64,000 bases of DNA, from the IMG/VR virus record IMGVR_UViG_3300017716_002841, positions 32,001-96,000 of that record; one strand, given 5' to 3'. Under the pieces are notes generated by a model. It saw nothing but the letters and a program-made list of their open reading frames with translations. It was not told the origin of the DNA and searched no databases. This stretch comes from a virus. Position numbers and translations under genes: made by a program. Positions 1-63,998 of this stretch are shown here, piece by piece (the first letter of the stretch is position 1; each line of letters starts with the position of its first letter).

Positions 1-1
1 T

Positions 2-781
2 TATGATACTTGGAATGCCTACGAGGTGTCTGGATTAACTAATTTTGGCTTACCTGTTGTAGGAATTGCAAAAATTGTATACCCGTGCGATAGTAAGTAC
101 ATTGTTGAGTCGAAATCGCATAAGTTATATTTTAATACATTTAATATGACGAAGCTTGGTGATACTGCGCAAGAAGTTCTTAATGAAATTAGTGCTCGTG
201 TTACAAAGGATTTATCTGAGTTACTTGAATGTAGTGTTCGTGTTACTGTTGCTAGTAACGAATATGTATTAAGTGAAAATACATCTGCATATACTGAATG
301 GGGTCACGATCAGAAGCTTCTACGTCAACGTTCATATATTACTCTCGAAGAAGAGTATCCTATTGATAGTGTAGAGTTTAGTGTTTATAATGAAACACCT
401 GAGCTGCTTGAAGTGTTGGTCTCCGAAGTACATGACGTATACTATCATAGTGCGTTGCTTAAATCAAACTGCAGAGTAACCTCACAACCTGATTGGGGCG
501 ATGTCTATATTCATATGTCTGGTCCCAAGACTGTTGACCCTATTTCACTTCTAAAGTATATTATCTCTTTTAGAGATGAATGTCATTTTCATGAAGAAAT
601 TTGCGAAACTATTTATAAGCGCCTTTTAGATATTGTACAGCCTGAAGCTCTTGTGGTACGTTGTTTGTATGCTCGGCGAGGCGGTTTGGATATTAACCCT
701 GAACGTGCTTCACATAAGAGCTTACTTCATTACACTCTAAGCGATAGCTCGGTGCCTCATATTAAGACTCCAAAGCAATAA
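2..781 (+). CDS. queF: NADPH-dependent 7-cyano-7-deazaguanine reductase, bimodular (E. coli-type) QueF; 5' end outside window
   Basis: Motifs LKSNCRVTSQPDWG (catalytic Cys/Asp), HFHEEICE and YARRGGLDINP. Frame is open from base 2 (YDTWNAYEVSGL, resembling the QueF N-module). Confidence 0.93.
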   Translation, partial: YDTWNAYEVSGLTNFGLPVVGIAKIVYPCDSKYIVESKSHKLYFNTFNMTKLGDTAQEVLNEISARVTKDLSELLECSVRVTVASNEYVLSENTSAYTEWGHDQKLLRQRSYITLEEEYPIDSVEFSVYNETPELLEVLVSEVHDVYYHSALLKSNCRVTSQPDWGDVYIHMSGPKTVDPISLLKYIISFRDECHFHEEICETIYKRLLDIVQPEALVVRCLYARRGGLDINPERASHKSLLHYTLSDSSVPHIKTPKQ

Positions 782-14131: not shown

Positions 14132-14139
14132 ATTATTAT

Positions 14140-23141: not shown

Positions 23142-23156
23142 ATAACTTATTATATG

Positions 23157-31342: not shown

Positions 31343-31343
31343 A

Positions 31344-32138: not shown

Positions 32139-32139
32139 A

Positions 32140-33557: not shown

Positions 33558-33559
33558 AT

Positions 33560-34363
33560 TTATCTCCAGGCTTTTATATATTCTAACGTCTGTTCTAAGC
33601 TAAATCTTGTTATTTTTAAATACTCTTGCTCATTAAGTTTATATGATGCATGTGTATCTTCTCTATTCTTATTTTCATCGCTAATGTGTGGTAGGTGAAG
33701 CAAAAACGGTTTAATTGTATTAATCGAGTATATAGGTATTTTTAATTTTCTTGCACGTACTATTATCTCATTATCTTCATAACCCCAACCTTTAAAGTTT
33801 GGGTTAAACCCTCCTATATCAATAAACGTTTGTCTCTTACCGAATAATACACCACCTACAGCTTTAGTATTAGCAACGTGATAGTGTTCATTGGTATATC
33901 CAGTTTGTATATTTGCTGTGTCTATAAATGACACTAAGAAATCATATAAAGACTCTGTAATATCAATTATCTTATCCTTAACTGTATAATTAAAGTATAT
34001 AGCGATACCATTATAACCTATACATATACCGCCTGTATCTTCTAGTGTATTAATAGTCTTCTCAATATTTTGCTTACTTACGATGCAGTCAATATCAAGA
34101 AAACAAACAATATCTGTTGTACAACCCCTTAACCCGATGTTATATCCCTTACATTTGTTATGTTGACCTTCATTATAAAAATAAATATATTGAATCCTTT
34201 TATCGTCTTTCAAGTATTCAAAATTTTGTATTTTATCGTCTTCAATAACTATAAATTTACAAGTAGGTAGTATATTTTTATAGTATGCAATAACTATATC
34301 TACATTTTTAGCACGTTCTTCAGTATCTTTACGTAGATGTATAATAAAAGTTATATCACTCAT
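33560..34363 (-). CDS. GT2/GT7C glycosyltransferase
   Basis: FLDID, GGFNPNFKGWGYEDNE, LLHLPH. Confidence 0.85.
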   Translation of the reverse strand: MSDITFIIHLRKDTEERAKNVDIVIAYYKNILPTCKFIVIEDDKIQNFEYLKDDKRIQYIYFYNEGQHNKCKGYNIGLRGCTTDIVCFLDIDCIVSKQNIEKTINTLEDTGGICIGYNGIAIYFNYTVKDKIIDITESLYDFLVSFIDTANIQTGYTNEHYHVANTKAVGGVLFGKRQTFIDIGGFNPNFKGWGYEDNEIIVRARKLKIPIYSINTIKPFLLHLPHISDENKNREDTHASYKLNEQEYLKITRFSLEQTLEYIKAWR

Positions 34364-35105
34364 ATATAAATTTATCTGAGATTTTAACACCCTCGTATTG
34401 CTGTTTTATGTTTTGAAAAGCTTGGTGTTTTTGTTCATAAGCACTTACATAGGCAGGGTTGTTGTGTGTACCGCCAAAGTCAATACCTGTATCTTCTTTA
34501 GTACCATCAAATTTATTTTTATACCAACTCATACCCTCTAAGTGTATATAGTAACTAGTTGAAAGATCTACATTACCAATTTTAAGGTTATGCTTCTTAA
34601 TATCTTCTAAAAATGTAGATCCAATATCATATATCTTATAAGTCTTAAAACTGTCTTTCATTCTTTCTTCGTCAAAGAAAGTAATATTATGTTGTTTAAT
34701 TTTATCTACATTAATAAAACAATGCCACGGGTTGACTCTATTATAGATAGACTTACCTCCTCGATCACCTTCCACTTTACCCATAATAGCTAAATTCATA
34801 TCCTTAAATTGCTTAAAGATAGAGCTATGATCTTGCATGAAAATAACATCTGTATCAACAAGTAAAGCATATTTAGTTTTACATAACTTTAAAGCCTCAT
34901 TAACACCATCACCATGACTCAAACCTGGATGTGAGATATAGGGAACTTTGTGATCTCTCAGTAAATTTGTTGTATCATTATTTGTTGAATTGTCGACAAT
35001 AATAAGTCGCTGCGTTCTATTATGTACATGCATCCACGACTTTAACATTGTTAGTGTTATATCAGGTGTATTATAAGAGCATGTAATTAATGTTAAATCA
35101 TCCAT
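34356..35105 (-). CDS. GT2 glycosyltransferase
   Basis: CSYNT, IIVDNS, HGDGVN, LLVDTDV. Confidence 0.8.
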   Translation of the reverse strand: MDDLTLITCSYNTPDITLTMLKSWMHVHNRTQRLIIVDNSTNNDTTNLLRDHKVPYISHPGLSHGDGVNEALKLCKTKYALLVDTDVIFMQDHSSIFKQFKDMNLAIMGKVEGDRGGKSIYNRVNPWHCFINVDKIKQHNITFFDEERMKDSFKTYKIYDIGSTFLEDIKKHNLKIGNVDLSTSYYIHLEGMSWYKNKFDGTKEDTGIDFGGTHNNPAYVSAYEQKHQAFQNIKQQYEGVKISDKFIYE

Positions 35106-35938
35106 TTGGATTTTATATCTTTGAGATTATTGATAACACCTTCTTTACTAATATGTGGACACATATTAGGATAAAAGCCGTGTATATTACGGTATACTTC
35201 TCTACCTACATTTATATTTTTAATCCATTCCTCTTTATTAGTAGATGTCGTACTCCTATCAATAGAGTCTGATGGTATACTCAAATATCTCACACTATCG
35301 TGTATATCTGCAAACCACCAAAACGGTGGGTGTCCGTTAGCTTTTATAATTCTAAATGTATGGTCAACATGCTCCCATGCATTATGAAATTTTTCGTCGT
35401 GTAACCCTACGCTTTGCAATATTTCTTTTGTAAAAAAGCTGAATACACCAGCTACATGTTCATATAAATCAATCTTAACATTATTTTTATATTCAATAGT
35501 AATTTTTGGATTAGGTTTAGATTCATTATCTAGCAGATGTCTGTTATGTAGATCGTAATTACTGATAGTTTGACGTCTATTAAACGGTGTACCGGGTCCA
35601 AAATTAAAGTGTTGTATGCCTGTCTCCTTACTTGCTTGTATATATCGATCAAAAATTAACTTATTAAGTATGATTGTATCATCTTCAATAATAAAGATAT
35701 AATCACATCCTTTATCTAAGAGATGTTGCATAGCTTTATTTTTTGATTTACCAACACCTAAATTAGTATCATTTCTGATATAAGTACACGGATACGGAAA
35801 ATTAGGACCAGATATATTTTTACCATCATTAATAATAACAAGTTCATCAAAAGTACATATCTTGATACTGTTTAGTAAATTATGTAAGTATGTAGGTCTA
35901 TCACATGTAATGATACCAACACCAATCTTTTGTTTCAT
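35093..35938 (-). CDS. GT2 glycosyltransferase
   Basis: IITCDR, IINDG, NLGVGKSKN, IIEDD, GLHDE..WEHVD. Confidence 0.85.
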   Translation of the reverse strand: MKQKIGVGIITCDRPTYLHNLLNSIKICTFDELVIINDGKNISGPNFPYPCTYIRNDTNLGVGKSKNKAMQHLLDKGCDYIFIIEDDTIILNKLIFDRYIQASKETGIQHFNFGPGTPFNRRQTISNYDLHNRHLLDNESKPNPKITIEYKNNVKIDLYEHVAGVFSFFTKEILQSVGLHDEKFHNAWEHVDHTFRIIKANGHPPFWWFADIHDSVRYLSIPSDSIDRSTTSTNKEEWIKNINVGREVYRNIHGFYPNMCPHISKEGVINNLKDIKSKWMI

Positions 35939-36739: not shown

Positions 36740-37342
36740 TTAAAAGTTTTTCAAGAAAGAAGCCCACTCATCCTTATAAAGATCTAAAGACATTCCATTA
36801 TTTGGCTTACAAGGTCTATATCTTAATTTTAAACCTACTTGCTCTGGTGTAAAAGAAGCCTTTTTAGAGTTAAGAAGTCTATCGCAGCATACCATGTTTT
36901 CCCATGTATCCTTACCACCTCTACTCTTAGGTATAATATGATCTACACTAATATTATCTTTAGATAATTTGACACCTGTATATACACACGTATAATTATC
37001 ACGTTTAAGAATATTTTGTTTAGTAGGAAATTGTATTTTGTTGTGTATAACCTTATCAAATCGAGAACATATAACAACCGATGGTATACGAATAGGTCCT
37101 CTCGCTGTTTGAATGTATTCATCAAACGGTCTGATAGGTAATTCTAACCATTCTTTAACATTAGATACAGGTACAAAATACTCGATATTTTCTAAATTAA
37201 CAGTATTTTCATCTGTCATTTCATAGCTAATATTTAAAGGTACAACAGATCCGGAAAATATATTACCAAATGTTTTTTCAATACCTTCAACTGCTAACGG
37301 AAAATAAAACTTATTAAGTATAAGAACTTTATATAATTTCAT
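36740..37342 (-). CDS. HNH endonuclease (McrA-like)
   Basis: NILKRDNYTCVYTG, SVDHIIPKSRGG, TWENMVCC..NSKK. Confidence 0.88.
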   Translation of the reverse strand: MKLYKVLILNKFYFPLAVEGIEKTFGNIFSGSVVPLNISYEMTDENTVNLENIEYFVPVSNVKEWLELPIRPFDEYIQTARGPIRIPSVVICSRFDKVIHNKIQFPTKQNILKRDNYTCVYTGVKLSKDNISVDHIIPKSRGGKDTWENMVCCDRLLNSKKASFTPEQVGLKLRYRPCKPNNGMSLDLYKDEWASFLKNF

Positions 37343-38103
37343 TAAACAGATAACGCTTTATCCCACACCAGTAGATGAAGTCTTGGACTAAAGTTAACAC
37401 GTAATGCTTTAGCATATTCAACAACAGCCGGCGCTCTCTCGATATGTTCGTTACGTGAACCACAACACGGCATAAACCAAATACGCTTTAGAGGTACATT
37501 AATTCCATTACTATCTAAAACATATTTACACCAGATTTCATCTATATCTTCTGAGCACGTAATGACAAATTTAAATCCCGAACCATTCTCCTTATGCCAT
37601 TTTAAAACTTCAGGTTTATATGTTTTTTCTTCCGGATCGCCGTTTGTGGTTAGCTTAGGAGAGGTAGTAAACGTAGCTTTAAATTCTGTTACCCATCTAG
37701 AATCAGGCATAATAGTTGCATTTGTTTCAAAATCTATTTGCGGTAAAAACTCATATTTTAACACAAAAGCCTCGATAAACTTAATAAGTTGCTTACCTGA
37801 TACAAGAGGTTCGCCGCCTGTAAGCTTAAAAATTGCACCATCTTTAAGATGATTAATGTGATTACCTGTTTCAAGTAGTTCAAAAATTTCGTTAAAAGTC
37901 ATTTTATTTTTGACTGACCAAGAGATATAAGAGTCGCAACCGTTAGGTGAATCCTCTGAAATAAATGCCGCGCAAGTTAAATTACAGCTAGCAAGTCTCA
38001 TGAAAACAGAAGGCTTTCCTACATATTCTCCTTCTCCTTCAATAGTAAAAAATACAAAATCATTCGACAAAAACATTGTTTCTTTATCACAATCGATACT
38101 CAT
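37342..38103 (-). CDS. queE: 7-carboxy-7-deazaguanine synthase (radical SAM)
   Basis: TIEGEG..GKPSVFMRL, CNLTC-x11-CDS, TGGEP, ETN, SPK, RLH. Confidence 0.9.
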   Translation of the reverse strand: MSIDCDKETMFLSNDFVFFTIEGEGEYVGKPSVFMRLASCNLTCAAFISEDSPNGCDSYISWSVKNKMTFNEIFELLETGNHINHLKDGAIFKLTGGEPLVSGKQLIKFIEAFVLKYEFLPQIDFETNATIMPDSRWVTEFKATFTTSPKLTTNGDPEEKTYKPEVLKWHKENGSGFKFVITCSEDIDEIWCKYVLDSNGINVPLKRIWFMPCCGSRNEHIERAPAVVEYAKALRVNFSPRLHLLVWDKALSV

Positions 38104-38165
38104 AATTAAATTAATTATAAAATAAGACATATCTTAATCAAGCATTTTGATTAAATATTTTTAAC

Positions 38166-38915
38166 ATGACCCGTAAAGTGGCGCGTAAGCGCAAGTCTGC
38201 TGGTTTGGAGGAAGTTTCAGAAATTGAAGCTTCTTTTCAAAAAAACTGGATACTTGATTTTAAAATCAAGAAACCTTTCCACTTCAACGCTAACCATCAA
38301 CAATTTTTTAATTGTATAAAAGATGATAGCACTAATATGGCTTTTGTTGCTGGTCCGGCAGGTTCAGCTAAGTCTTATATTGCCATATTAGCAGGTCTCG
38401 AGCTGCTTAAGGAGAAGAAAATAACAAGTATTATATACATTAGGTCTGTTATTGAATCGGCATCACGTAGCATTGGAGCTCTACCGGGAGAGATAGATGA
38501 TAAGTTCTCTCCATACGCAATGCCTCTTATCGAAAAAATAACAGAGATTACAGATACAAGTACATGTAATTCGCTTAAAACGAATAATATTATTCAAGCT
38601 ATACCAGTTAATTTTGTAAGAGGTCTTACATTTAACGATTCACTTGTTATAGTAGATGAAGCTCAAAATTTACAAAAGTCGGAGCTTGTAACTATACTTA
38701 CACGATTCGGTAAAAATACTAAGTATGTTATTTGCGGCGACTTAAATCAAAGTGATATTGGTAAGCTTTCTGGTTTTAAAGAAGTATATGATCGATTTGA
38801 TACTAGCGAATGCGTGGATCATAAAATCCACGCATTCGAATTTGGAGAATCTGAAATCGTTAGAAGTAAGATTCTTAAGTTTATCGTTAAAATACTAGAA
38901 GCCAAACAGCATTAA
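38166..38915 (+). CDS. phoH: PhoH-family ATPase
   Basis: GPAGSAKS, LPG, RGLTF, IVDEAQN, TRFG, GDLNQSD, IVRS. Confidence 0.93.
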   Translation: MTRKVARKRKSAGLEEVSEIEASFQKNWILDFKIKKPFHFNANHQQFFNCIKDDSTNMAFVAGPAGSAKSYIAILAGLELLKEKKITSIIYIRSVIESASRSIGALPGEIDDKFSPYAMPLIEKITEITDTSTCNSLKTNNIIQAIPVNFVRGLTFNDSLVIVDEAQNLQKSELVTILTRFGKNTKYVICGDLNQSDIGKLSGFKEVYDRFDTSECVDHKIHAFEFGESEIVRSKILKFIVKILEAKQH

Positions 38916-39580
38916 GCACCCCACGATGTCCCTGCGAACGGATTACTCATACCGTTTGATACCTGACCGTTACCTACACGAGCACCTCGATCTATTTGCT
39001 GAGGCGCCTGTTGAATGTTAATAGGTTCTGTATGTGTAAACTCCGATGTAGACACCGATGGTTGAGCTTTTACTTCTGTATTAAAACTATAAGTTGTGAC
39101 AGTAGGTAAATCTTCAGCTATTTCCGTTACATTATTAATAGAATAAGTCGCAGAATTTTCTTCATGTTCAAATACTTCAACTTTATCTACCCAGCATCTA
39201 TTTTTTGTCAACTCACGAACATGTCTATCAGCTATATTAAATACATTTTCAGCTGCCCGTTCAATACCTACGCCTTCTTTCATAATGTAAAGTTGAATAA
39301 TACCTCTATCATGTAGATGTTTAAAAGTCTCTAGCTCTGGATCATCAGCAGCAACTGTAGTAGTATGATCATAAATACTTTTTAGTTCTGCTTTAAGCTC
39401 TTTTAAACTTCCAAAATCTACACACCAGTTTTTATCATCGAGAGATGAACCACTAAACCATATCTTAGCTTTAAGCTGATAACCGTGTAGAAAACGACAA
39501 TGTGAATGTGAAGCGCGCCATTGTCTGAACGCACAGGAGCCAAGCTCGATTACTTTTGTTGACTGAAAAACAGGTTTCAT
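38912..39580 (-). CDS. queD: 6-carboxy-5,6,7,8-tetrahydropterin synthase with C-terminal extension
   Basis: AFRQWRA.HSHC..LHGY, VDFG.LK, DHT, FEHEENSA. Confidence 0.9.
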   Translation of the reverse strand: MKPVFQSTKVIELGSCAFRQWRASHSHCRFLHGYQLKAKIWFSGSSLDDKNWCVDFGSLKELKAELKSIYDHTTTVAADDPELETFKHLHDRGIIQLYIMKEGVGIERAAENVFNIADRHVRELTKNRCWVDKVEVFEHEENSATYSINNVTEIAEDLPTVTTYSFNTEVKAQPSVSTSEFTHTEPINIQQAPQQIDRGARVGNGQVSNGMSNPFAGTSWGA

Positions 39581-39599: not shown

Positions 39600-40352
39600 T
39601 TATAATCTTTTCAACTGTTCAATTAAGACTTTTTGTGTAGCCTTAGTATTTTCAACTAATGCACGTGATTGTAAAACAGTCTTTACATCTTGTATTTCTG
39701 TGTCTGAAAGTGGGTCAGTTGCATTTGTTTTGCTAGTAATATCCAATATAGCTCCGTCCATATCTACTGCGCTTGGGGATAATTTACTCGCATACTGACG
39801 TTCATTAATTCCTAAATCACGCGTTATAATAGTTGAGAGTATAGCTACCGTGATTCTACCTCTTTGCTTATATAACCTAATAATATCATCAAATTTAGGC
39901 TTTGATTGAACTTTACCCTTTTCTCCTTGAATCTGGTTACCTTTATTATCTCTTACATCCATTGTTAAGGCGTTATCTTTTCCACCTCTTGTAACATAAG
40001 CGTAATATGTGGTAGGTGGTACAGTACCACCTACGGGTTTAAACCTTTCTGCGTCGAATTCTACAATTGTTCTATTGCTTTTTGATGGATCCTTAGTTTC
40101 TTTGTTAATTTTTATTGTTTTAGTATTAAAAACTCTTGAATAATTTAACTGTAGTTCTGCCTTCACAAATAATTTAGGTTGATTACCGGTAAAGGCTCTA
40201 CCTATTTGCTTAAATGGTTCGGCGATTCGTCCCAACGGTCTAGTTATTTCAGGTGCTAGTGTTGTTGCCGCTGTTTTAGCAGCTGCGGCAACACCTCTTA
40301 CTATATCGCCGAATGACTCTTTTATAATTTCTTTTTGAGAAAGCTTTCGCAT
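39600..40352 (-). CDS. Hypothetical late protein (possible internal head protein)
   Basis: TATAAATA upstream; IIKE/S possible protease site near the N-terminus. Confidence 0.55.
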
Positions 40353-40401
40353 ATTTATATTTATAGTTGATATTATGAATATACGATATTATAATCCGAT
40401 T

Positions 40402-41070
40402 ATGGATGATTCTGAAAATACCGAAATTGGAGATATCGTTAAGCTACCATATGCTAACGGTAATGCTCCCCGTACAGAAAAGGAAAAGCAAGCTATTATT
40501 AAACGAGCTGCTAAGGCTTATGAAAAATACATGGATGCTCTTGGATTTGACTGGAGAAATGATCCTAACTCGGATAATACTCCAATGCGAGTCGCTAAGG
40601 CTTTCGTTAACGATATTGCAACCGGCTGTTATGATAATCAGCCTAATGTCACTGCATTTCCGAATAATGGTTATGACGGTATTGTTGCACAGTGCAATAT
40701 TCCCGTTAAATCACTTTGTTCACATCATCACTTAGCTTTTTCTGGTGTTGCTCATGTAGCGTATATACCGAGCCCAGAAGGTAAGGTTATCGGTCTTAGT
40801 AAGCTTAATCGTATTGTTGAGTTTTACGCAAGACGTCCGCAAATTCAGGAGGGGTTGAGTGTGCAGATTCATGACGCAGTTAACGTCGCTTGTGAAGGTA
40901 ATCTAGGTGTAGCTGTTGTACTCAAAGCTCAACATACATGCGCTTGTAATCGTGGAGTAAGACATGATGGATGCTTTATGATTACATCTAAGCTGTCAGG
41001 TGATTTCCTCGCTGATGAAAAGACACGTACAGAACTTTATAAGTTCATTGATATGGCTTCCAGAAAGTAA
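40402..41070 (+). CDS. folE: GTP cyclohydrolase I
   Basis: [40 protein letters not shown]. Confidence 0.95.
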
Positions 41071-48173: not shown

Positions 48174-48198
48174 ATATAAAAGTATTTATAATAACTTT

Positions 48199-53366: not shown

Positions 53367-54575
53367 ATGTACGTTACACCCTTTGTTAATCCGTTTGTAA
53401 GCGCTATAGTTCAACCTATTGTTAATAATATTATAACTCCTGCCGCAAAAAATACACAGCCTAGAGAGCTATCACTGCCGCGTTATGTTAATTATATCGC
53501 TGATTATTCGGGTTGTGGTTTTTGGAGAATTTTATGGCCAGAAGTTCTTATTAACTCACGCGGAATAGGCTGCTCATCATCTTTAACGGCGATGGTATTT
53601 GATCCGCGGTGGTATGCCGGTGTAGCGTGTGTTAAGGTTCAACGACAAGCATCTAGTGATCAACGTGAATTTATTAAGCACTTAAAACAAGTTCAAAAAG
53701 AACATGGCTTTAAGCTTATATATGAAGTTGATGATGTTGTTTTTAGGGAAGATATACCCGATTATAATAAATTTAAATTTGCGTTTGATAATGATGAAAT
53801 TCGGAATAATTGCATAGAAATTATTAATATGTGTGATGAGGTTCTTGTAACTTGCGATTACATGCGAAAGTTATATCAACAAAGAACAGGTAAAAAGGAA
53901 ATTACCGTAATTCCTAACTTTGTACCTTATACATGGATGGGTCATCAGTTTGATAGAAGTAAAATTTACGCAAATTATGATAAAAACAAAAAAAAGCCAC
54001 GTGTACTGTATACAGGTTCTGGAGCTCATTTTGATGTAGATAATAAAAATAATGGAGTTGATGATTTTTCTCATGTAATTGATCTAGTCTTAAGAACACT
54101 ACAAAAATATCAATGGATATTTGTAGGTTCTTTTCCACCTAAATTGCTACCGTATATTCAATCCGGCGAAATAGAGTTCCATCAATGGCAGACACTTGAT
54201 ACATATGCAACTTTTATCGCCGACCTTAATGCTCAAGTAATGATCGCACCTCTTATAGATAATAGTTTTAATAGATCTAAATCTGATATTAAGTTTATTG
54301 AAGCGTGTGTATTAGGATTACCGTGCATGGTACAAAATATGGAGACATATAAAAATGCTCCTGAATACCTTAAATTTGATACAGGTGATGATCTTGAAAT
54401 AAAGCTCGATAATGTACTTCGTAACAAATCAATGTACTATAAAAATGTTGATTTTTATAGGGGTATAGGTGAGAAGAGATTCTTAGAGCATCCTGAAAAT
54501 ATTGGATGTCATATTGAAGCTCTTAACACTCCATATGGATCTCCTCAACGTGTTTATCTTAAGAAGTGGAATTAA
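53367..54575 (+). CDS. GT-B glycosyltransferase within the replication module
   Basis: ADYSGCGFWR, YEVDD, VIPN, IAPL..FNRSKSDIKFIEA..G.P. Confidence 0.8.
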   Translation: MYVTPFVNPFVSAIVQPIVNNIITPAAKNTQPRELSLPRYVNYIADYSGCGFWRILWPEVLINSRGIGCSSSLTAMVFDPRWYAGVACVKVQRQASSDQREFIKHLKQVQKEHGFKLIYEVDDVVFREDIPDYNKFKFAFDNDEIRNNCIEIINMCDEVLVTCDYMRKLYQQRTGKKEITVIPNFVPYTWMGHQFDRSKIYANYDKNKKKPRVLYTGSGAHFDVDNKNNGVDDFSHVIDLVLRTLQKYQWIFVGSFPPKLLPYIQSGEIEFHQWQTLDTYATFIADLNAQVMIAPLIDNSFNRSKSDIKFIEACVLGLPCMVQNMETYKNAPEYLKFDTGDDLEIKLDNVLRNKSMYYKNVDFYRGIGEKRFLEHPENIGCHIEALNTPYGSPQRVYLKKWN

Positions 54576-57935: not shown

Positions 57936-59039
57936 ATGGATAAAGACGTTAAAAGTGCATTGGATAGTATTGATGAAGTTAACCCGTTTGCTACTTATCT
58001 CTCAGATAGTACTCTAAGTAGAGTAGATAGCTGGATTGATACAGGTAGTTATGTACTTAACGCAATTGTTTCTGGCTCCGTTTACGGTGGTATTCCAAAA
58101 GGCCGTGTGGTCATGCTTGCAGGAGAATCCATGACAGGTAAATCGCTGTTTGTACAGAAGATTCTCGCTAATGCTCAGAAAGAAGGACTTATTCCTGTTA
58201 TTTTTGATACAGAAAATGCTATTGATGCAGAAGGTGCTACCCGTATTGGTCTAGATGTATCTAAAGTCAAGTACGTACCTTGTGTTAGTATTGAACAAAC
58301 GCGAAATGCCTTATATAAGTTCTTAACTTCAGTTCAAGAAAAGAAACTACAAGGTAAGTTTATTATAGCTATTGATTCACTTGGTAATTTACAATCCGAA
58401 CTTGAACATTCACGCATGGGTAAGGAAAGTACAAGTTCAGATATGGGATCTAAGGCACGTGCAATGAAGACATTGCTACAAACGTGTACTAACTTGGGAT
58501 CAGTAACTCAAACAACAATTTTACTTACTAATCATGTTTATGATGATCCTACAGCATTGTTTCCATCAATTGAAAAGAATATGCCAGGCGGCAAAGCGTG
58601 TGTATATCTTCCATCAGTTACAGTTCAACTAGCTCGTAAGCCCGTTAAGGACGATGGTGGTAAAACAACAGATACTAAACTTGCTGTTGGACAGAAAAAC
58701 TACTCTGGTATTATTATTAGAGCCCTAACTCGTAAGAATCGCTTTATTAAGCAATATCTTGAAGGTGAAATGTTCTTATCGTTCTCTACGGGCCTCGATA
58801 GATACTACGGACTACTCGATCTTGCAGTCGGTCACGGTATTGTTATTCAAGGCGGTGCTACTTATACACTCGAAGATGGTACTAAGTTAGGATATTATCG
58901 TAACTGGCGTAAGGATACTAAGCTCTGGGAAGAAACTATTATTCCTAAGCTTGAGTTGAAGATTAAAAAGGAGTGGTCATACTCTAATGATGAATCAGAA
59001 GCACCAGAAGAAATAATTGAAACAGAAGATCATGAATAA
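57936..59039 (+). CDS. uvsX: RecA-like recombinase UvsX
   Basis: DTGSYVLN, AGESMTGKS, FDTENA, IDSLG, DMG..A, NHVY, GG. Confidence 0.95.
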   Translation: MDKDVKSALDSIDEVNPFATYLSDSTLSRVDSWIDTGSYVLNAIVSGSVYGGIPKGRVVMLAGESMTGKSLFVQKILANAQKEGLIPVIFDTENAIDAEGATRIGLDVSKVKYVPCVSIEQTRNALYKFLTSVQEKKLQGKFIIAIDSLGNLQSELEHSRMGKESTSSDMGSKARAMKTLLQTCTNLGSVTQTTILLTNHVYDDPTALFPSIEKNMPGGKACVYLPSVTVQLARKPVKDDGGKTTDTKLAVGQKNYSGIIIRALTRKNRFIKQYLEGEMFLSFSTGLDRYYGLLDLAVGHGIVIQGGATYTLEDGTKLGYYRNWRKDTKLWEETIIPKLELKIKKEWSYSNDESEAPEEIIETEDHE

Positions 59040-59853
59040 AGAACTAAATATATCAGAAATTCTCACCAACTATGAGAAATCAATTGGTTATGTAGCGCCT
59101 AAACCACCAGAAAAGCTAGTTTTAGCATTTTCTGGCGGAATGGATTCAACATTACTTTTACACATTGCTGCTGCTGGTGGTGTAAAGGAAATTCATACTG
59201 TAACATTTGACTACGGTCAAAGACATAGTAGAGAATTAGAATGTATGGGTGTTCAGTATCAACTTATAAAGGAAAAATATCCTAATGTTACTGTAACAAA
59301 TAAGATTCTCGATGTATCATACCTAAAAGATATCTCACCTACTTCATCTCTTACTAATGATGAGATTGATAACCCAGATATTAGTAAAATTGCAGGTGAT
59401 GCGCAACCTGTATCATATGTACCGTTTAGAAATCAGATGTTTGTTACGATCTGCTGTGCTTATGCAGAAAGTCTCAAAGCAGATGAAGTGTGGTATGGTG
59501 CAGCACAAGTCGATTCTCTAGCCGGTTACTGGGACGGAGATTTTTCATTCGTTGACAAGATGAATGAACTAATATCACTTAACAGACAACATAGAATCCG
59601 CGTGGGAGCTCCATTGCTCTCCCTGTCAAAGGCTGATATCGTAAGGCAGGGTGTAGAATTAGGAGTAAACTTCGGAGACACATGGACATGCTATTCAAAT
59701 CGCGAAGATAGACTAGCTGATGCTACCACACCTTCTAGTAGTTTAAGATTAGCCGGCTTTATTGAAGCCGGCTACATTGACCCTATTAGATACTTACAAC
59801 AGGAAAAACTTAATAGGATTTATGAAGCTAAAGGATGTAATTACATACCGTAA
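59032..59853 (+). CDS. queC: 7-cyano-7-deazaguanine synthase (atypical C-terminal Zn site)
   Basis: SGGMDS, FDYGQRH, YVPFRN, APL..LSKADIV, TWTCY. Confidence 0.9.
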   Translation: MNKELNISEILTNYEKSIGYVAPKPPEKLVLAFSGGMDSTLLLHIAAAGGVKEIHTVTFDYGQRHSRELECMGVQYQLIKEKYPNVTVTNKILDVSYLKDISPTSSLTNDEIDNPDISKIAGDAQPVSYVPFRNQMFVTICCAYAESLKADEVWYGAAQVDSLAGYWDGDFSFVDKMNELISLNRQHRIRVGAPLLSLSKADIVRQGVELGVNFGDTWTCYSNREDRLADATTPSSSLRLAGFIEAGYIDPIRYLQQEKLNRIYEAKGCNYIP

Positions 59854-60965
59854 CTTCTTAATTCAGCTAACTGCTTAGAAGTTTTTGGTTTAAACTTTTC
59901 TTTAAAACCTACACTCTCAATAATTGGCTTAGCAGAAGTATAATCTCTTTGATCTGACATATAATTAAGTATTGAATTTGTTGTATTTTCCTTAATTGGT
60001 TGCTTATTACCAAGAGCTGCTTGCACCGCTTTAGTTTGAGCATTCATTAATTCAGGTGCTAATTTAGTACCCTTATAATCGACAGCCAATTCATCAAATT
60101 GTGAAGTATTTTCTGCATCTTCATAACCTTCTTCTTCTTCTTGACCTACATTACCTGTTATATTAGGTTTAGCCTGAATATCAGGTGTATGAATAACTAC
60201 TCCAGCGCCTCCATAATTTTCTAAATCATCAGAAATTTGAGATTCTACTTTCTCAGCACCCAACCTTGCTATAATTTTACCTAACTTAGTGTCTTTACCA
60301 AAAGTAGCATCGATACTTCTACCCTCTACTTCAATATCAGTCTCTTTAACGAACTTTTTAAGATAATTAATAATGCGATTTATATCCTCTAAATCACTAC
60401 CTTTATCAACAACAACTTCAATCATATAATCATTGCTATATGATCCTTGAATTGATTTTGTCAAATCATCAAAATTATCTACAACCTGACTTACAGAGCT
60501 AAGTGCTGCAGCTGTATCTTTCTTACGCTCTATACGTGCAACCTTTTTAGCTGCTTTAAGTTCAGCGTTAAGCTTATTCATTTCCATACGCTGTTGCGCA
60601 GCATCTGTTCTATTACCTGTTGTAAAGCTAATTTTATTCTCTAGTTGATCTTTGATATGGTTTTGTATATCATCTCGCCGAGACTTTATCTGCTTTGCGA
60701 TACCATTCTGCTCAAAATAATCAACCATTCTACTAACAGAAGGGTCGTTCTTAAACATTCTTATAACACTATCATCGATAATATCAAGATCGTATAAAAT
60801 ATTTAACATTGCTAGTCTTCCTTCACGAGTACCAGATGATGCGCCTTTTGATGCAGCTAATTCTCTAGCTTGCTTTTGAAAGCCTGGCATGAGTCTTTCC
60901 ATAGGTGAAGGCGCCGCTTCATTAAGAAATGTTAATCTTGAGAGTAGATTTGCAAAGGAACACAT
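59841..60965 (-). CDS. Hypothetical late protein (possible internal head protein)
   Basis: Perfect TATAAATA at 60972-60979; FLNE/A, IKE/N and IIE/S possible gp21 sites. Confidence 0.6.
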   Translation of the reverse strand: MCSFANLLSRLTFLNEAAPSPMERLMPGFQKQARELAASKGASSGTREGRLAMLNILYDLDIIDDSVIRMFKNDPSVSRMVDYFEQNGIAKQIKSRRDDIQNHIKDQLENKISFTTGNRTDAAQQRMEMNKLNAELKAAKKVARIERKKDTAAALSSVSQVVDNFDDLTKSIQGSYSNDYMIEVVVDKGSDLEDINRIINYLKKFVKETDIEVEGRSIDATFGKDTKLGKIIARLGAEKVESQISDDLENYGGAGVVIHTPDIQAKPNITGNVGQEEEEGYEDAENTSQFDELAVDYKGTKLAPELMNAQTKAVQAALGNKQPIKENTTNSILNYMSDQRDYTSAKPIIESVGFKEKFKPKTSKQLAELRSYGM

Positions 60966-60983
60966 ATACAATATTTATACAAG

Positions 60984-61301
60984 ATGCAATTAAATTGGGA
61001 AGATTTTAACGAAATGTCTTTTACAGGTATATGTAAACTACCTGGTATTGGAAAAAAAGTAGCAGAACGCATTGTAGCAATGCAGCCGTTTCGCACAAAC
61101 AACGATCTTTTTAAGATAAAAGGTCTTGGATCTAATACTTTAAAAAAATTAGGTATTGAAAAGGAGAAGAAAGAACGCAAAAGTTGGCATCTAATGCCAG
61201 ATGGTATTGAATATCCATCATACGCTCTAGCTAAAAATAATTTAACAGGTCAAATCGATTTTTTCTGGAGAATGCCAAGAGAAAGAAGAGAATATTTATA
61301 A
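60984..61301 (+). CDS. Helix-hairpin-helix (ComEA-like) DNA-binding protein
   Basis: LPGIGKKVAERIV and IKGLGSNTLKKL. Confidence 0.85.
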   Translation: MQLNWEDFNEMSFTGICKLPGIGKKVAERIVAMQPFRTNNDLFKIKGLGSNTLKKLGIEKEKKERKSWHLMPDGIEYPSYALAKNNLTGQIDFFWRMPRERREYL

Positions 61302-61305
61302 TACT

Positions 61306-61974
61306 ATGTGTGCGATTTTAATGAGTAACAACATCTCTAAATTCGAGGTACTATACGACGGTAATTTAGTAAGAGGTAATTTCTCCAGCGGTGTTCTTTG
61401 TCTATATGACGGCAACGAACAGCAAACTATTAAGAAACAAGGAACTCTCGATTTTAATTGTATACAACTAGATGATAGATGTGATTACTTTATCGGACAT
61501 GTTCAAGCTCCCACTTCAGCAGCAAGACACTGGTCATACGATACATCTCACCCCTTTGAATCTTTATCTTGGTCTGTAGTTCATAATGGTGTACTAACAA
61601 ATGATAAGGAATTAAAGCGTAAATATATACCGTGGGATGAAAACACTGTTGATACTTCTGTAATACCTAATTTACTGCAACACCTTACAGAAGAGTGTAA
61701 TGGTGAGTGCCCTGCACCAATAACTATTAAGAAGGTTCTTAATTTACTTGAAGGTACATTTGCTTTAGGTATTGTTGATACGGATTCTAACGATGTTTAT
61801 ATAGCGCGGCAGGGATCTATACTACACTTTAACGATAATGGTGATGTATCTACTCTTGGAGGTGAAGGATTTACCTTATTACCTGAAGGTGTAATAATGA
61901 TGCTTGGTAACAATCACGATACATGGAGTATTGTCGATACTTTTGAAACTAAATCACCTTTCTTATTTATTTAA
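61306..61974 (+). CDS. Class II (Ntn) glutamine amidotransferase
   Basis: Cys2 (MCAI), RG, GHVQAPT, SHPF, VVHNGVL, VDTSVI, LEGTFA. Confidence 0.85.
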   Translation: MCAILMSNNISKFEVLYDGNLVRGNFSSGVLCLYDGNEQQTIKKQGTLDFNCIQLDDRCDYFIGHVQAPTSAARHWSYDTSHPFESLSWSVVHNGVLTNDKELKRKYIPWDENTVDTSVIPNLLQHLTEECNGECPAPITIKKVLNLLEGTFALGIVDTDSNDVYIARQGSILHFNDNGDVSTLGGEGFTLLPEGVIMMLGNNHDTWSIVDTFETKSPFLFI

Positions 61975-61978
61975 ATTT

Positions 61979-62647
61979 ATGTCAATAAACAAAACACTAT
62001 ATTTCTCTGCAACTAAGGGAAGCCGTAAAGATACATTATTGTTTAAAAATAGTTCTGTATATAATAAATTCATTTACAAGGAAAATAATAAACTACCGTT
62101 ACCTCAACTTTACAATAAAGCTATCGACTTAGCTATTGAAGGTAAAAAGGAGTATATTGTGCTGTGTCATGACGATGTTATTATTGAATCTGATGTAGCT
62201 TACAAACTACCAGATATTTTACGTACGGAATTTGACATTATTGGTGTAGCGGGTACAACAGAATGTAAATTACAAGAACCTGCACTATGGCATCTAATGG
62301 GAGGTGGGGTTGAAGGTCGCAAACTACACGGTGCAGTAGCTCACGGTAATGAAAATCAAAAGAGTATGACCTCTTTTGGAGTCTACCCTCAGCGAGTCGT
62401 CTTATTAGATGGAGTATTTTTAGCCATTCATAGACGTGTATTTGAAAAGGTACGGTTTGATGAAACTAACCCTGCTGGTTTTCACTTTTATGATCTAGAT
62501 TATTCTCTACAGTGTCATAAAGCTGGATTTAAATTAGGAGTGTCAGATATTATGATTACACATGCATCCCCTGGCTTAAAAGAATTTACACCTGAGTTTC
62601 TTGAAGGTCAAAAGTGGTTTCTAGAAAAGTGGAAGGGTAAACTATGA
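61979..62647 (+). CDS. GT2-like glycosyltransferase
   Basis: YN.AI, VLCHDDV, IIGVAG, LDGVFLA, FDE..GFHFYDLD, ITH.S.G. Confidence 0.85.
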   Translation: MSINKTLYFSATKGSRKDTLLFKNSSVYNKFIYKENNKLPLPQLYNKAIDLAIEGKKEYIVLCHDDVIIESDVAYKLPDILRTEFDIIGVAGTTECKLQEPALWHLMGGGVEGRKLHGAVAHGNENQKSMTSFGVYPQRVVLLDGVFLAIHRRVFEKVRFDETNPAGFHFYDLDYSLQCHKAGFKLGVSDIMITHASPGLKEFTPEFLEGQKWFLEKWKGKL

Positions 62648-62659
62648 GTGGATTTTCAT

Positions 62660-62675
62660 GGAACTCTAATATAAT
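62660..62675 (+). promoter_or_regulatory. GGAACT-N4-TATAAT promoter-like motif before gp41
   Basis: Same spacing at 41071-41086 (+) and 21037-21052 (-). Confidence 0.55.
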
Positions 62676-62681
62676 GACAAT

Positions 62682-63998
62682 GTGAGTGATTTAGATCTTG
62701 ATTATTTTGAACGTATAATTTGCTACCGATCTTTAACCGACTCTACCTATTTAGCTTCGATTGTTGACTATATTAAGCCGAAATATTTTAAATCTAAGAA
62801 TATTGCTAAGATTTTTGATATTATTAACGACTTTTATACTAAACGTGAAAAACTACCTACGCTAACTGAAGTTAAAGCGTATCTTACTACAGATGAATAC
62901 AGAGATTCATTCAAGCAGCTCGTAGAATCATTCAAAGATATTGATAAAAACATCGATAAGAATGAACTGTATGATAACACAGAAAGATTTATTAAAGAAA
63001 AATCTGTATATCATACTATGCTTGAAGTGGCGAGCGATATTGCTAAAGGCTCTATTGATACTTCAGAGATTCTTAATAAGTTCGAAACCTCCTGTAATAT
63101 TAACCTTGTAACAGATAGAGGTCTTGATTTATATAGAGATGTAGATCTTATTGTGGAGGATCTTACAAATATACAAAAAGCTATCCCTAGTACCTGGGCG
63201 TGGTTCGATGATGCTCTAAATGGTGGTTTTCAAGAAAATGGTCGCGCTCTATATGTATTTGCTGGTGAAACTAACATCGGTAAGTCTATCTTTCTAGGTA
63301 ACGTAGCTACTAATATTGCTAATCAAGGTAAAAATGTACTGCTAATTACGTTAGAAATGTCAGAGTTGCTGTATGCTAGACGTATCTGTACTAATGTTAG
63401 TAAGATTCCACTCAAAGAACTCGCAATAAACTCTCATTCTTTACGTCAAGCGTTAAAAGAACAGGAGGATGATGGTAAGGGTCGTATTTTTATTAAGGAG
63501 TTTCCTCCTAGTACAGTTACTCCTAACCAATTAAAAGCCTTTATTAAGAAAATTGTTGATCAAGGTATTAAGATTGACGCAATTGTATTAGATTATCTTA
63601 ATCTTTTACATTCTACAGTAGGATCTAACTCTTATGAACGTATTAAAAACGTAACAGAACAAGTGCGTGCTATGACATATGTATTTAACTGTCCTATCAT
63701 ATCCGCAACTCAGTTAAATCGCTCTGGATTTAGTTCTGCAAATCCTGATCTTACTACTATTTCAGAATCTGTTGGTTTAGCTGCTACTGCTGATGTTATT
63801 GTATCAATTTATCAAAACGAAGAAGATAGAGAATTGAGTATTATTAGGTTAGGTATGATGAAAAACCGATATGGTCCTAGAGGTCATACTCAAGCTATGA
63901 GAATTGACTACTCTACACTAACTATTACCCAGGCTGAAGAAGAAATGCAGACTTTAGAAGACGAATCATACAATAATCTAAGCTTTTTAGGTAGTTGA
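62682..63998 (+). CDS. gp41: Replicative DnaB-like helicase, gp41-like
   Basis: AGETNIGKS, ITLEMSE, IKEFP, LDYLNL, ATQLNRSG, SES.GL..TAD, KNRYG. Confidence 0.96.
   Translation: MSDLDLDYFERIICYRSLTDSTYLASIVDYIKPKYFKSKNIAKIFDIINDFYTKREKLPTLTEVKAYLTTDEYRDSFKQLVESFKDIDKNIDKNELYDNTERFIKEKSVYHTMLEVASDIAKGSIDTSEILNKFETSCNINLVTDRGLDLYRDVDLIVEDLTNIQKAIPSTWAWFDDALNGGFQENGRALYVFAGETNIGKSIFLGNVATNIANQGKNVLLITLEMSELLYARRICTNVSKIPLKELAINSHSLRQALKEQEDDGKGRIFIKEFPPSTVTPNQLKAFIKKIVDQGIKIDAIVLDYLNLLHSTVGSNSYERIKNVTEQVRAMTYVFNCPIISATQLNRSGFSSANPDLTTISESVGLAATADVIVSIYQNEEDRELSIIRLGMMKNRYGPRGHTQAMRIDYSTLTITQAEEEMQTLEDESYNNLSFLGS

What the first reader, a model, noticed from the sequence alone, without database searches (positions are those of the whole stretch)
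59032..63998. QueC, HhH, glutamine amidotransferase and GT2 embedded between uvsX and gp41: candidate glycosylated 7-deazaguanine DNA hypermodification
Seen: queC overlaps uvsX. After one opposite-strand ORF come an HhH DNA-binding protein, a standalone Ntn glutamine amidotransferase and a GT2 glycosyltransferase, closely packed and ending just before the replicative helicase. Established: phage FolE/QueD/QueE/QueC make preQ0, Gat-QueC yields archaeosine (G+), QueF yields preQ1, and T-even phages glucosylate modified bases. Inference: a DNA-binding protein and a GT beside the QueC/GAT pair in the replication core, far from the glycan island, suggest a deazaguanine base that is further amidated and/or glycosylated. 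I do not know of such a DNA base being described.
Basis: partly seen in the sequence, partly recalled or inferred. Interest (0 to 1): 0.82.

Follow-up and report, generated by a model that had tools for sequence, protein, structure and literature searches.

The report
Deazaguanine DNA genes plus unrelated glycosyltransferase
An uncultured lake relative of phage T4 carries the full known gene set for replacing guanine in its DNA with a formylated 7-deazaguanine; the amidotransferase next to queC is probably a helper subunit of QueC that no paper I read names, and nothing links the neighbouring glycosyltransferase to that base.

Summary
Between uvsX and gp41 lie queC, one opposite-strand gene, an HhH protein, a Cys2 class-II glutamine amidotransferase (GAT) and a GT-A glycosyltransferase (GT2).

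- **DNA modification is likely, but of a known kind.** Just upstream of the window the record encodes DpdA3, a DpdN-like formyltransferase, a kinase and QueF. They stand in the order seen in Flavobacterium phage immuto_2-6A, whose DNA is fully fdPreQ1. FolE, QueD and QueE lie inside the window.
- **The GAT belongs to QueC, not to the GT2.** The same stand-alone GAT family follows QueC directly in KVP40-like Vibrio phages, a jumbo Vibrio phage and Pseudomonas phage pf16. QueF is present in each, and no GT or HhH gene sits beside it. Measured DNA of such phages holds dPreQ1 or dPreQ0, with at most traces of archaeosine (dG+). The GAT therefore most likely feeds glutamine nitrogen to QueC.
- **The GT2 is independent.** A more distant clade keeps uvsX-GT2-gp41 with no queC, HhH or GAT there and no folE at the syntenic site. 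The record holds at least 8 GT genes. The GT2 fold is a generic GT-A.

Glycosylated deazaguanine is not excluded but has no support. The scan noted this cassette before on related genomes, and one earlier follow-up reached a similar verdict.

The parts
1..781 (+). QueF (bimodular preQ0 reductase). Its 5' end lies 170 nt upstream of the window. It is the last gene of the block DpdA3 - DpdN-like formyltransferase - P-loop kinase - QueF (record positions 29775-32781).
   Evidence: QueF_N 2e-33 and QueF 5e-21. Upstream DpdA3-like: 46.7% identity, E 3e-67, to the immuto_2-6A DNA guanine transglycosylase. Formyltransferase: 41% identity, E 4e-41, to immuto DpdN. Gene order matches immuto.
37342..38130 (-). 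QueE (7-carboxy-7-deazaguanine synthase)
   Evidence: NCBIfam QueE models down to 1.5e-12; phrog_2076 1.7e-38.
38912..39580 (-). QueD (CPH4 synthase)
   Evidence: PTPS 2.5e-16; phrog_2389 7.5e-34.
40375..41070 (+). FolE (GTP cyclohydrolase I)
   Evidence: PF01227 8.8e-45.
57936..59039 (+). UvsX recombinase (flank)
   Evidence: RecA 1.7e-17; phrog_97 1.3e-58.
59032..59853 (+). QueC (preQ0 synthase), a variant that has lost three of the four Zn-ligand cysteines
   Evidence: Pfam QueC 5e-49. SGGMDS and VPFRN are kept; the Zn site reads TCY...ADATTPSSSLR where B. subtilis has CGECPAC. It is closest to the GAT-linked QueCs of Vibrio phages and pf16 (32-36% identity).
59841..60965 (-). Fast-evolving opposite-strand gene of unknown function that splits the queC-GAT pair. 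Possibly a late gene.
   Evidence: No Pfam, PHROG, NCBIfam or Atlas match. 23-78% identity among relatives. TATAAATA on the minus strand at 60972-60979, 6 nt before the ATG; the motif is not enriched in the window as a whole.
60984..61301 (+). Small helix-hairpin-helix (ComEA-like) DNA-binding protein; role unknown; dispensable in a subclade
   Evidence: HHH_3 3.3e-9. Absent from L045, L047, L051, L054, L056, L058 and L059, which keep queC, GAT and GT2. No homologue beside QueC-GAT in other lineages.
61306..61974 (+). Stand-alone class-II (Ntn) glutamine amidotransferase; proposed glutaminase partner of QueC
   Evidence: GATase_6 7e-9. Invariant: R23-G24, N94-G95, D116, HVQAPTS and the SPF of the C-terminal tail; Cys2 is nearly invariant (lost only in 5'-truncated entries). 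AF2 model matches the GlmS/PurF glutaminase domain, TM 0.74-0.77. Family members directly follow QueC in KVP40-like phages, Vibrio phage 2.275.O and pf16.
61979..62647 (+). GT-A fold glycosyltransferase (Glyco_tranf_2_5). A backbone gene of this T4-like group; acceptor unknown.
   Evidence: Pfam 9e-12. Invariant HDD motif. AF2 pLDDT 92; best PDB matches are majastridin 2qgi (UDP-bound GT-A) and STIV A197. Present as uvsX-GT2-gp41 in the clade without que genes.
62682..63998 (+). gp41-type DnaB replicative helicase (flank)
   Evidence: DnaB_C 9e-29; phrog_19 1.4e-72.

Best explanation
The phage makes a 7-deazaguanine DNA base by the known route: FolE, QueD, QueE, QueC (preQ0), QueF (preQ1), a DpdN-like formyltransferase, and DpdA3, which places the base in DNA. 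The expected product is fdPreQ1, probably replacing most or all G, as in Flavobacterium phage immuto_2-6A.

The finding's region holds one enzyme of that route, QueC, and its likely partner. The partner is a stand-alone Ntn glutamine amidotransferase that hydrolyses glutamine and passes ammonia to the ATP-dependent QueC. QueC needs ammonia to turn the 7-carboxyl group into the nitrile. Functionally this is a two-gene form of Gat-QueC that feeds QueF rather than making archaeosine. In this lineage the pair has been pulled apart by an inserted opposite-strand gene and a small HhH gene.

The GT2 downstream is an older resident of the uvsX-gp41 interval with an unrelated, still unknown acceptor.

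Shown here: gene identities, synteny, and co-occurrence across lineages. Inferred: ammonia channelling, the final base, and the independence of GT2's function.
For: **Pathway is complete.**
- FolE, QueD, QueE, QueC, QueF.
- DpdA3: phmmer 3e-12 to phiST DpdA3; 46.7% identity, E 3e-67, to immuto DpdA3; 44-46% to the DpdA3 homologues of Campylobacter phages such as CP220.
- DpdN-like: 41% identity.
- The DpdA3-DpdN-kinase-QueF order matches immuto. Immuto DNA is 100% fdPreQ1 (PMC10516641).
- A related 122-kb contig also has DpdA3 and FolE.

**GAT pairs with QueC.**
- Stand-alone family members (hhalign 97.9-98.8% for the three Vibrio-phage proteins; pf16_77 by Pfam GATase_6 5e-10; the same H-x-Q-A-P-T motif and aromatic C-terminal tail) lie directly after QueC in all 49 Vibrio-phage records found (48 KVP40-like plus the jumbo phage 2.275.O, a separate lineage) and in pf16. 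QueF is upstream in each locus I opened.
- QueC uses ammonia as its nitrogen donor (PMC13082051).
- The GAT keeps the Ntn catalytic set and folds as a GlmS/PurF glutaminase domain.
- DNA of phages with this module: dPreQ1 and mdPreQ1 with dG+ = 0 (phi-Grn1, phi-ST2); 15% dPreQ1 (6E35.1a); mostly dPreQ0 (nt-1).

**GT2 is independent.**
- The distant clade is collinear with window 41.6-64 kb but has uvsX-GT2-gp41 only. No FolE or DpdA3 was found in seven of its records of up to 78.7 kb, and no QueC in the four of them searched for it.
- No GT beside QueC-GAT elsewhere.
- At least 8 GT genes in the record.
- Generic GT-A fold hits.
Against: - No chemistry was measured, and no cultured relative exists (gp43 is about 31% identical to the nearest phage).
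- The record is about 50% complete.
- The GAT is not specifically closer to the Gat domain of 9g Gat-QueC (25% identity, E 5e-7) than to GlmS. Its H-x-Q-A-P-T motif replaces the Arg that binds the glutamine carboxylate in GlmS and PurF, so its substrate might not be free glutamine.
- QueC here lacks the Zn site thought necessary for canonical QueC. Immuto's QueC lacks it too, and that phage still makes fdPreQ1.
- HhH-GAT-GT2 are separated by only 4 nt and are probably co-transcribed, so a shared role cannot be excluded.
- The distant-clade records are only 4-37% complete, so que genes elsewhere in those genomes cannot be ruled out.
Confidence: 0.6

Rival explanations
1. One reading: HhH, GAT and GT2 act together on DNA-borne deazaguanine to give a further amidated and/or glycosylated base not yet described.
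For: HhH-GAT-GT2 are packed with 4-nt gaps on the replication-gene strand. The cassette is conserved in about 70 contigs. GT2 is a soluble GT-A with an intact DxD-type motif. GT-A enzymes that glycosylate DNA bases exist (bioRxiv 10.1101/2023.12.21.572611). No paper found describes a glycosylated deazaguanine in DNA.
Against: - The conservation lies within one lineage and is not independent evidence.
- GT2 persists without queC, HhH and GAT in the distant clade.
- QueC-GAT persists without GT or HhH in four other lineages.
- HhH is missing from a subclade.
- GT2 resembles known DNA GTs no more than generic GT-A enzymes: the phiRSL1 TET-associated GT ranks 19th, TM 0.58.
- preQ0, preQ1, fdPreQ1, G+ and ADG carry no hydroxyl acceptor (my inference).
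- With at least 8 GT genes in 105 kb, one lying next to a que gene is unremarkable.
Confidence: 0.07
2. GAT plus QueC act as an archaeosine synthase, like fused Gat-QueC of phage 9g. The DNA would then carry dG+, alone or alongside fdPreQ1.
For: Class-II GAT plus QueC is the domain content of Gat-QueC, which gives dG+ in 9g (PMC6884629). phrog_10428 matches both proteins. nt-1, which has the stand-alone GAT, contains a trace of dG+ (44 per 10^6 nt).
Against: QueF and DpdN are present and point to preQ1 chemistry. In every locus of the other lineages that I opened, the GAT sits with QueF. phi-Grn1 and phi-ST2 show dG+ = 0, and 6E35.1a shows dPreQ1. nt-1 also has ArcS, which could account for its trace of dG+. 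The GAT is not specifically related to the 9g Gat domain.
Confidence: 0.12
3. GAT works with GT2 on a sugar or other non-nucleic-acid substrate (GlmS-like amination followed by transfer), unrelated to deazaguanine.
For: The best family and fold matches of the GAT are GlmS glutaminase domains. The GAT stop and the GT2 start are 4 nt apart. The phage invests heavily in glycan genes.
Against: No sugar-isomerase (SIS) or other synthase domain is present. The same GAT family overlaps QueC, with no GT, in KVP40-like phages, pf16 and 2.275.O. The distant clade has GT2 without the GAT.
Confidence: 0.08
4. The que genes only raise the host's queuosine-tRNA precursor supply, and the phage DNA is unmodified.
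For: Hutinet 2019 raises this for phages that lack DpdA. No Pfam TGT match exists in this record or five relatives.
Against: A clear DpdA3 homologue is present. Pfam TGT does not detect that subfamily. It is accompanied by a DpdN-like gene in the immuto order. Every tested DpdA3 phage has fully replaced G (PMC10516641).
Confidence: 0.04

Closest known systems
[quoted passage not shown] 2023, PMC10516641)
   Same: FolE, QueD, QueE, QueC, QueF, DpdA3 (46.7% identity) and DpdN (41% identity). The gene order DpdA3-formyltransferase-kinase-QueF is the same. QueC lacks the Zn cysteines in both. A phosphoribosyltransferase is encoded in both genomes.
   Different: Immuto has no detectable homologue of the GAT, GT2 or HhH and uses a family-A polymerase. 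Here the genes are scattered over four loci of a T4-like genome, and QueC is only 27% identical.
Fused Gat-QueC of Enterobacteria phage 9g and Crenarchaeota (dG+/archaeosine synthesis; PMC6884629)
   Same: A class-II Ntn amidotransferase combined with a QueC PP-loop ATPase; both serve phage 7-deazaguanine DNA modification.
   Different: Here there are two separate genes about 1.45 kb apart. The GAT is GlmS-like and only 25% identical to the 9g Gat domain. QueC lacks the Zn site that 9g keeps. QueF and DpdN are present. DpdA3 stands in place of DpdA1.
QueF-QueC-'hypothetical protein' module of Schizotequatrovirus (KVP40, nt-1, VH7D, phi-Grn1, phi-ST2, 6E35.1a), Pseudomonas phage pf16 and Vibrio phage 2.275.O
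   Same: The same stand-alone Ntn family (Cys2, H-x-Q-A-P-T, aromatic C-terminal tail) paired with the QueCs most similar to this one. QueF co-occurs.
   Different: There the GAT abuts or overlaps QueC, QueC keeps CxxCxxC, and DpdA2 or a TGT-like enzyme is used at low modification levels. Here the pair is split by an inserted reverse-strand gene with or without HhH, and the system uses DpdA3 plus DpdN.
Phage DNA glycosyltransferases (T4 alpha/beta-GT; GT-A enzymes associated with TET/5mYOX; base-J JGT)
   Same: GT2 is a small soluble GT-A enzyme encoded among replication genes.
   Different: No specific sequence or fold similarity beyond the generic GT-A. No hydroxymethylase or thymidylate-synthase-like gene in the record. 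No co-variation with the base-modifying genes.
Majastridin (Rhodobacter blasticus ATPase-operon ORF6; PDB 2qgi/2nxv), family Glyco_tranf_2_5
   Same: Best structural match (TM 0.68, E 2e-10), the same Pfam family, and a UDP-binding GT-A fold.
   Different: 18-19% identity. Majastridin's own acceptor is unknown to me, so it gives no functional lead.

Membership tests
Phage 7-deazaguanine DNA-modification system (DpdA + preQ0 pathway) | A DpdA-family DNA transglycosylase is encoded | tested here: met
   DpdA3-like ORF at record 29775-30683: phmmer 2.9e-12 and BLASTP 1e-15 to phiST CGPG_00065; 46.7% identity, E 3e-67, to immuto DpdA3.
Phage 7-deazaguanine DNA-modification system (DpdA + preQ0 pathway) | [quoted passage not shown] | tested here: met
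Phage 7-deazaguanine DNA-modification system (DpdA + preQ0 pathway) | A modified base is present in virion DNA | not testable with these tools
   Needs LC-MS/MS or raw long-read signal. I did not run the sequencing-run tools.
fdPreQ1 subtype (DpdA3 + QueF + DpdN) | QueF nitrile reductase and a DpdN-group PurN-like formyltransferase next to DpdA3 | tested here: met
   QueF_N 2e-33 and QueF 5e-21. Formyltransferase 41% identity, E 4e-41, to immuto DpdN. Same gene order.
Gat-QueC (fused archaeosine-type synthase) | GAT class-II domain fused N-terminally to QueC in one polypeptide | tested here: not met
   Separate genes at 59032-59853 and 61306-61974 with two genes between them. The top 150 relatives of the GAT are nearly all stand-alone proteins of 200-235 aa.
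Gat-QueC (fused archaeosine-type synthase) | Canonical QueC Zn site C(x)8CxxCxxC, as in 9g | tested here: not met
   Only the first Cys is kept.
Gat-QueC (fused archaeosine-type synthase) | Product is G+/dG+ | not testable with these tools
   Homologous split modules sit in phages with dPreQ1 or dPreQ0 DNA.
QueC-linked stand-alone Ntn amidotransferase (KVP40-type; unnamed in the papers I read) | Cys2 nucleophile, R-G, N-G and D catalytic set, H-x-Q-A-P-T motif, aromatic C-terminal tail, about 200-230 aa | tested here: met
   hhalign 97.9-98.8% to the Vibrio-phage members.
QueC-linked stand-alone Ntn amidotransferase (KVP40-type; unnamed in the papers I read) | Encoded beside QueC, with QueF in the genome | tested here: met
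   Same locus as QueC, though 1.45 kb downstream rather than abutting; QueF at window 1-781.
DNA-base glycosyltransferase | GT fold with an intact nucleotide-sugar (DxD) site | tested here: met
   Invariant H64-D65-D66; GT-A model with pLDDT 92; UDP-bound majastridin is the top match.
DNA-base glycosyltransferase | Specific similarity to a known DNA GT | tested here: not met
   The TET-associated GT of phiRSL1 ranks only 19th in BFVD (TM 0.58). No T4 alpha/beta-GT among the listed PDB matches.
DNA-base glycosyltransferase | Co-occurrence with the genes that make the acceptor base | tested here: not met
   GT2 is present in the clade lacking queC, GAT and folE at the syntenic loci. It is absent beside QueC-GAT in four other lineages.
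DNA-base glycosyltransferase | Sugar transfer to DNA | not testable with these tools
   Needs an in-vitro assay.

The most novel reading that the evidence does not exclude
In this lineage the co-transcribed HhH-GAT-GT2 genes further decorate DNA-borne deazaguanine, for example by adding a sugar to a preQ1-type amine or to an amidated side chain. That would be a glycosylated 7-deazaguanine, which has not been described. A more modest and more likely novelty (about 0.55) is that the stand-alone H-x-Q-A-P-T Ntn amidotransferase is a conserved, so far unnamed glutaminase subunit of phage preQ0 synthase. It is found from KVP40 to this lake phage.
Probability: 0.07. Interest if true: 0.8.

Novelty: new variant of a known kind. 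Interest (0 to 1): 0.42.

Why it matters
The result extends the DpdA3/DpdN (fdPreQ1-type) DNA-modification system from one cultured Flavobacterium phage to a widespread uncultured freshwater and marine T4-like lineage.

It also points to a missing piece of the phage deazaguanine pathway. A stand-alone glutamine amidotransferase travels with QueC in at least five phage lineages, yet it is annotated as a hypothetical protein in KVP40, nt-1, VH7D and about 45 other records. If it makes preQ0 synthesis glutamine-dependent, that would explain how these phages sustain heavy deazaguanine synthesis in ammonium-poor waters. The idea can be tested in cultured Vibrio phages.

The result also removes the support for a more exciting but unsupported claim of a glycosylated deazaguanine.

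Tried and rejected
- **Pfam searches for DpdA.** Pfam TGT (PF01702) and DUF6610 found no DpdA in the record or five relatives. This was a false negative: DpdA3 was found only with the phiST protein as query.
- **The two unannotated ORFs as DpdA candidates.** I tested the 376-aa reverse ORF and the 250-aa ORF at 39600-40352. Neither has any similarity to a known family; both are charged and low in complexity.
- **GenBank phages.** tblastn of GT2 found nothing. tblastn of the window's GAT gave only weak hits. The informative contexts came only through a more distant family member used as query.
- **The search for related loci with the diverse GAT alignment.** Failed for lack of a conserved stretch.
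- **The MMBR 2024 review** is not held.
- **A hydroxymethyl-pyrimidine acceptor for GT2.** No thymidylate-synthase or hydroxymethylase homologue in the 105-kb record. The record is only half complete, so this is inconclusive.
- **TATAAATA as a late promoter for the reverse gene.** The motif is not enriched overall (20 seen against 20.4 expected), so I cite only its position.
- **Loss of the QueC Zn site as a marker of a different product.** Rejected as a discriminator, because immuto's QueC also lacks the site and that phage makes fdPreQ1.

Full report
**Setting.** The window is bases 32001-96000 of a 105,316-bp IMG/VR viral record, estimated about 50% complete. It is a T4-like phage with about 33% G+C. 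Its DNA polymerase is only about 31% identical to the nearest cultured phages, which are cyanomyoviruses. It therefore represents an uncultured lineage. Homologues come from many JGI, ENA, Logan and Tara samples.

**Observation.**
- UvsX: 57936-59039.
- QueC: 59032-59853, overlapping uvsX by 8 nt.
- A 374-aa ORF on the other strand: 59841-60965.
- A 105-aa HhH protein: 60984-61301.
- A 222-aa class-II glutamine amidotransferase that starts Met-Cys: 61306-61974.
- A GT-A glycosyltransferase. Its true start is the ATG at 61979, 4 nt after the GAT stop; homologues are 218-222 aa.
- The gp41 helicase: 62682-63998.

AlphaFold models of GT2 and GAT are confident, with pLDDT 92 each. The gene order recurs in about 70 IMG/VR contigs. 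A subclade lacks HhH.

**The rest of the pathway.** Pfam TGT finds nothing in the record or in five relatives. The window nevertheless holds QueE (37342-38130), QueD (38912-39580) and FolE (40375-41070).

Cui, Hutinet et al. 2023 (PMC10516641) describe DpdA3, a divergent subfamily that was missed in earlier work. I took the phiST DpdA3 protein from its GenBank record and searched all ORFs of the record with it. It hits one ORF just upstream of the window, at record positions 29775-30683, with E = 2.9e-12.

[quoted passage not shown] It is 44-46% identical to the homologues in Campylobacter phages such as CP220.

Three genes follow it:
- a PurN-like formyltransferase, 41% identical (E 4e-41) to immuto DpdN;
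- a P-loop kinase;
- a bimodular QueF that runs into the window at 1-781.

Immuto has the same order: DpdA3, formyltransferase, thymidylate kinase, QueF. Its DNA has all G replaced by fdPreQ1. A related 122-kb contig also carries DpdA3 and FolE. The most economical prediction is fdPreQ1-type DNA, which is a known base.

**The amidotransferase.**
- *Catalytic set and fold.* The GAT keeps the Ntn catalytic set: Cys2, R23-G24, N94-G95 and D116. It also has an invariant HVQAPTS motif and a conserved SPFLF tail. Its model matches the GlmS and PurF glutaminase domains with TM up to 0.77. It has no synthase domain of its own.
- *Family.* A profile search of 1.84 billion representative proteins gives 4,520 hits. 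The best 150 (E 1e-90 to 1e-19) are almost all full-length, stand-alone proteins of 200-235 aa. Of these, 91 carry H-x-Q-A-P-T and 37 carry H-x-R-A-P-T.
- *Contexts in GenBank phages.* I used a distant family member as query and found the family in annotated phages. In Vibrio phage 1.081.O the order is FolE, TGT-like, QueF, QueC, 'nucleophile aminohydrolase'. In the 349-kb Vibrio phage 2.275.O it is QueF, YhhQ, QueC, aminohydrolase, FolE. In Pseudomonas phage pf16, where every gene is annotated hypothetical, it is FolE, a 440-aa protein, QueF, QueC, GAT, MazG, gp43. In Vibrio phage 6E35.1a it is QueD, FolE, TGT-like, QueF, QueC, a 201-aa protein.
- *How many records.* The gene is found in all 49 Vibrio-phage records retrieved (48 KVP40-like plus 2.275.O), including KVP40, nt-1, VH7D, phi-Grn1 and phi-ST2. 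It is nearly always called hypothetical, and in most records QueC is annotated against its start.
- *Same family.* Profile comparison puts the three Vibrio-phage proteins in one family with the window's GAT at 97.9-98.8% probability, and Pfam GATase_6 (5e-10) places pf16_77 with them. All share H-(V/I)-Q-A-P-T and an aromatic C-terminal tail. The window's QueC is also most similar to these GAT-linked QueCs: 32-36% identity, against 27% for immuto and 24% for 9g.

Adjacency of QueC and this GAT in several unrelated genome backbones is independent evidence of a functional pair.

QueC uses ammonia as its nitrogen donor (PMC13082051). The pairing also mirrors asparagine synthetase B, which joins an Ntn GAT to a PP-loop domain; that comparison rests on my own knowledge. 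The likely role is therefore glutamine-dependent ammonia supply.

The module always travels with QueF. Phages that have it contain dPreQ1 and mdPreQ1 with no dG+ (phi-Grn1, phi-ST2), 15% dPreQ1 (6E35.1a), or mainly dPreQ0 (nt-1). It is therefore not a marker of archaeosine. None of the papers I read names this protein.

**The glycosyltransferase.** GT2 has an invariant H-D-D motif. Its GT-A fold is closest to UDP-binding majastridin and to STIV A197. Known DNA GTs rank no higher than generic GT-A enzymes. Three observations separate it from the que genes.
1. A more distant clade (gp43 about 45% identical, GT2 about 41%) has uvsX-GT2-gp41 with no queC, HhH or GAT. Its longest record (78.7 kb) is collinear with window 41.6-64 kb. 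It has no FolE beside the homologue of the 41598-42059 gene. No DpdA3 or FolE was found in seven records of that clade, and no QueC in the four searched for it. These records are 4-37% complete, so absence from the whole genome is not proven.
2. None of the other QueC-GAT loci contains a GT or an HhH gene.
3. The record has at least 8 GT genes supported by Pfam or PHROG, so one lying next to a que gene is not surprising.

As an inference from the chemistry, the known deazaguanine side chains (nitrile, aminomethyl, formamide, amidine, amide) offer no hydroxyl acceptor. The record has no hydroxymethylase homologue either. What GT2 glycosylates remains unknown.

**The two remaining genes.** The reverse-strand ORF evolves fast, at 23-78% identity among relatives, and has no detectable relatives elsewhere. 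A TATAAATA lies 6 nt before its ATG, but the motif is not enriched in the window. It looks like an inserted gene, possibly a late one, that separated an ancestrally adjacent queC-GAT pair. HhH is a ComEA-like DNA binder of unknown role. A subclade does without it.

**Verdict.** The DNA-modification reading is supported, but for a known base. The amidation and glycosylation reading is not supported.

The new elements are these:
- a split Gat + QueC module that feeds QueF;
- a QueC without its Zn site, shared with immuto;
- the presence of the DpdA3/DpdN system in a large uncultured T4-like lineage.

Earlier notes of this scan on related genomes described the same cassette, and one follow-up reached a similar verdict. 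The DpdA3 block was also noted on this genome. I reached both points independently and tested them here.

Noticed in passing
window 59032-59853; L083:5608-6489 (immuto QueC): The QueC of this lineage (TCY...ADATTPSSS(L/M)R in all relatives checked) and the QueC of immuto_2-6A have both lost the CxxCxxC Zn ligands. The QueCs of Vibrio phages, pf16 and 9g keep them. Both Zn-less QueCs sit in DpdA3+DpdN phages. The YPDC motif reads YWDG here.
   Followed up: partly
record 22762-23235 (L002:8763-9236), record 31231-31824 (L002:17232-17825), L002:9863-12501: A phosphoribosyltransferase (Pribosyltran 6e-10), a P-loop/dNK-like kinase inside the DpdA3-QueF block, and both RNR subunits lie close together. 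Immuto likewise has a phosphoribosyltransferase, an NTP pyrophosphohydrolase and a thymidylate kinase in its cluster. This raises the possibility of a nucleotide-level route to the modified dNTP alongside DpdA3.
   Followed up: partly
L100 (Pseudomonas phage pf16, KU873925 33777-46286): pf16 carries an entirely unannotated deazaguanine cluster (QueD, FolE, a 440-aa protein with no Pfam match that may be DpdA2/ArcS-like, QueF, QueC, GAT, MazG-like) directly beside gp43 and near uvsX.
   Followed up: partly
window 60972-60979, 14137-14144, 18257-18264, 48183-48190, 40352-40359 (minus strand): Several TATAAATA motifs lie only 6-10 nt upstream of minus-strand start codons. That leaves little room for a leader or a Shine-Dalgarno site. 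The motif count overall equals the chance expectation.
   Followed up: partly
L084 (G001:C1:39264-40127): The DpdA3 homologue of a related 122-kb contig (63% identity) has one in-frame TGA. This could be a sequencing error, a pseudogene or recoding.
   Followed up: no
window 30110-35938 (minus strand): A run of glycosyltransferase genes (GT61, GT10, GT7C/GT2, GT2, GT2 by Pfam), flanked by further ORFs of 250-300 aa with no Pfam match. This is a large glycan-building island in a tailed phage.
   Followed up: partly
window 36740-37342 (minus strand): An HNH endonuclease gene (HNH_4 1e-10) lies immediately beside queE. PhoH is wedged between queE and queD.
   Followed up: no
window 53367-54575: A second GT-like gene (phrog_7162, 402 aa) lies directly upstream of gp43. 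It is conserved at 45-48% identity in the distant clade as well. Like GT2, it is a backbone gene of the replication module.
   Followed up: partly
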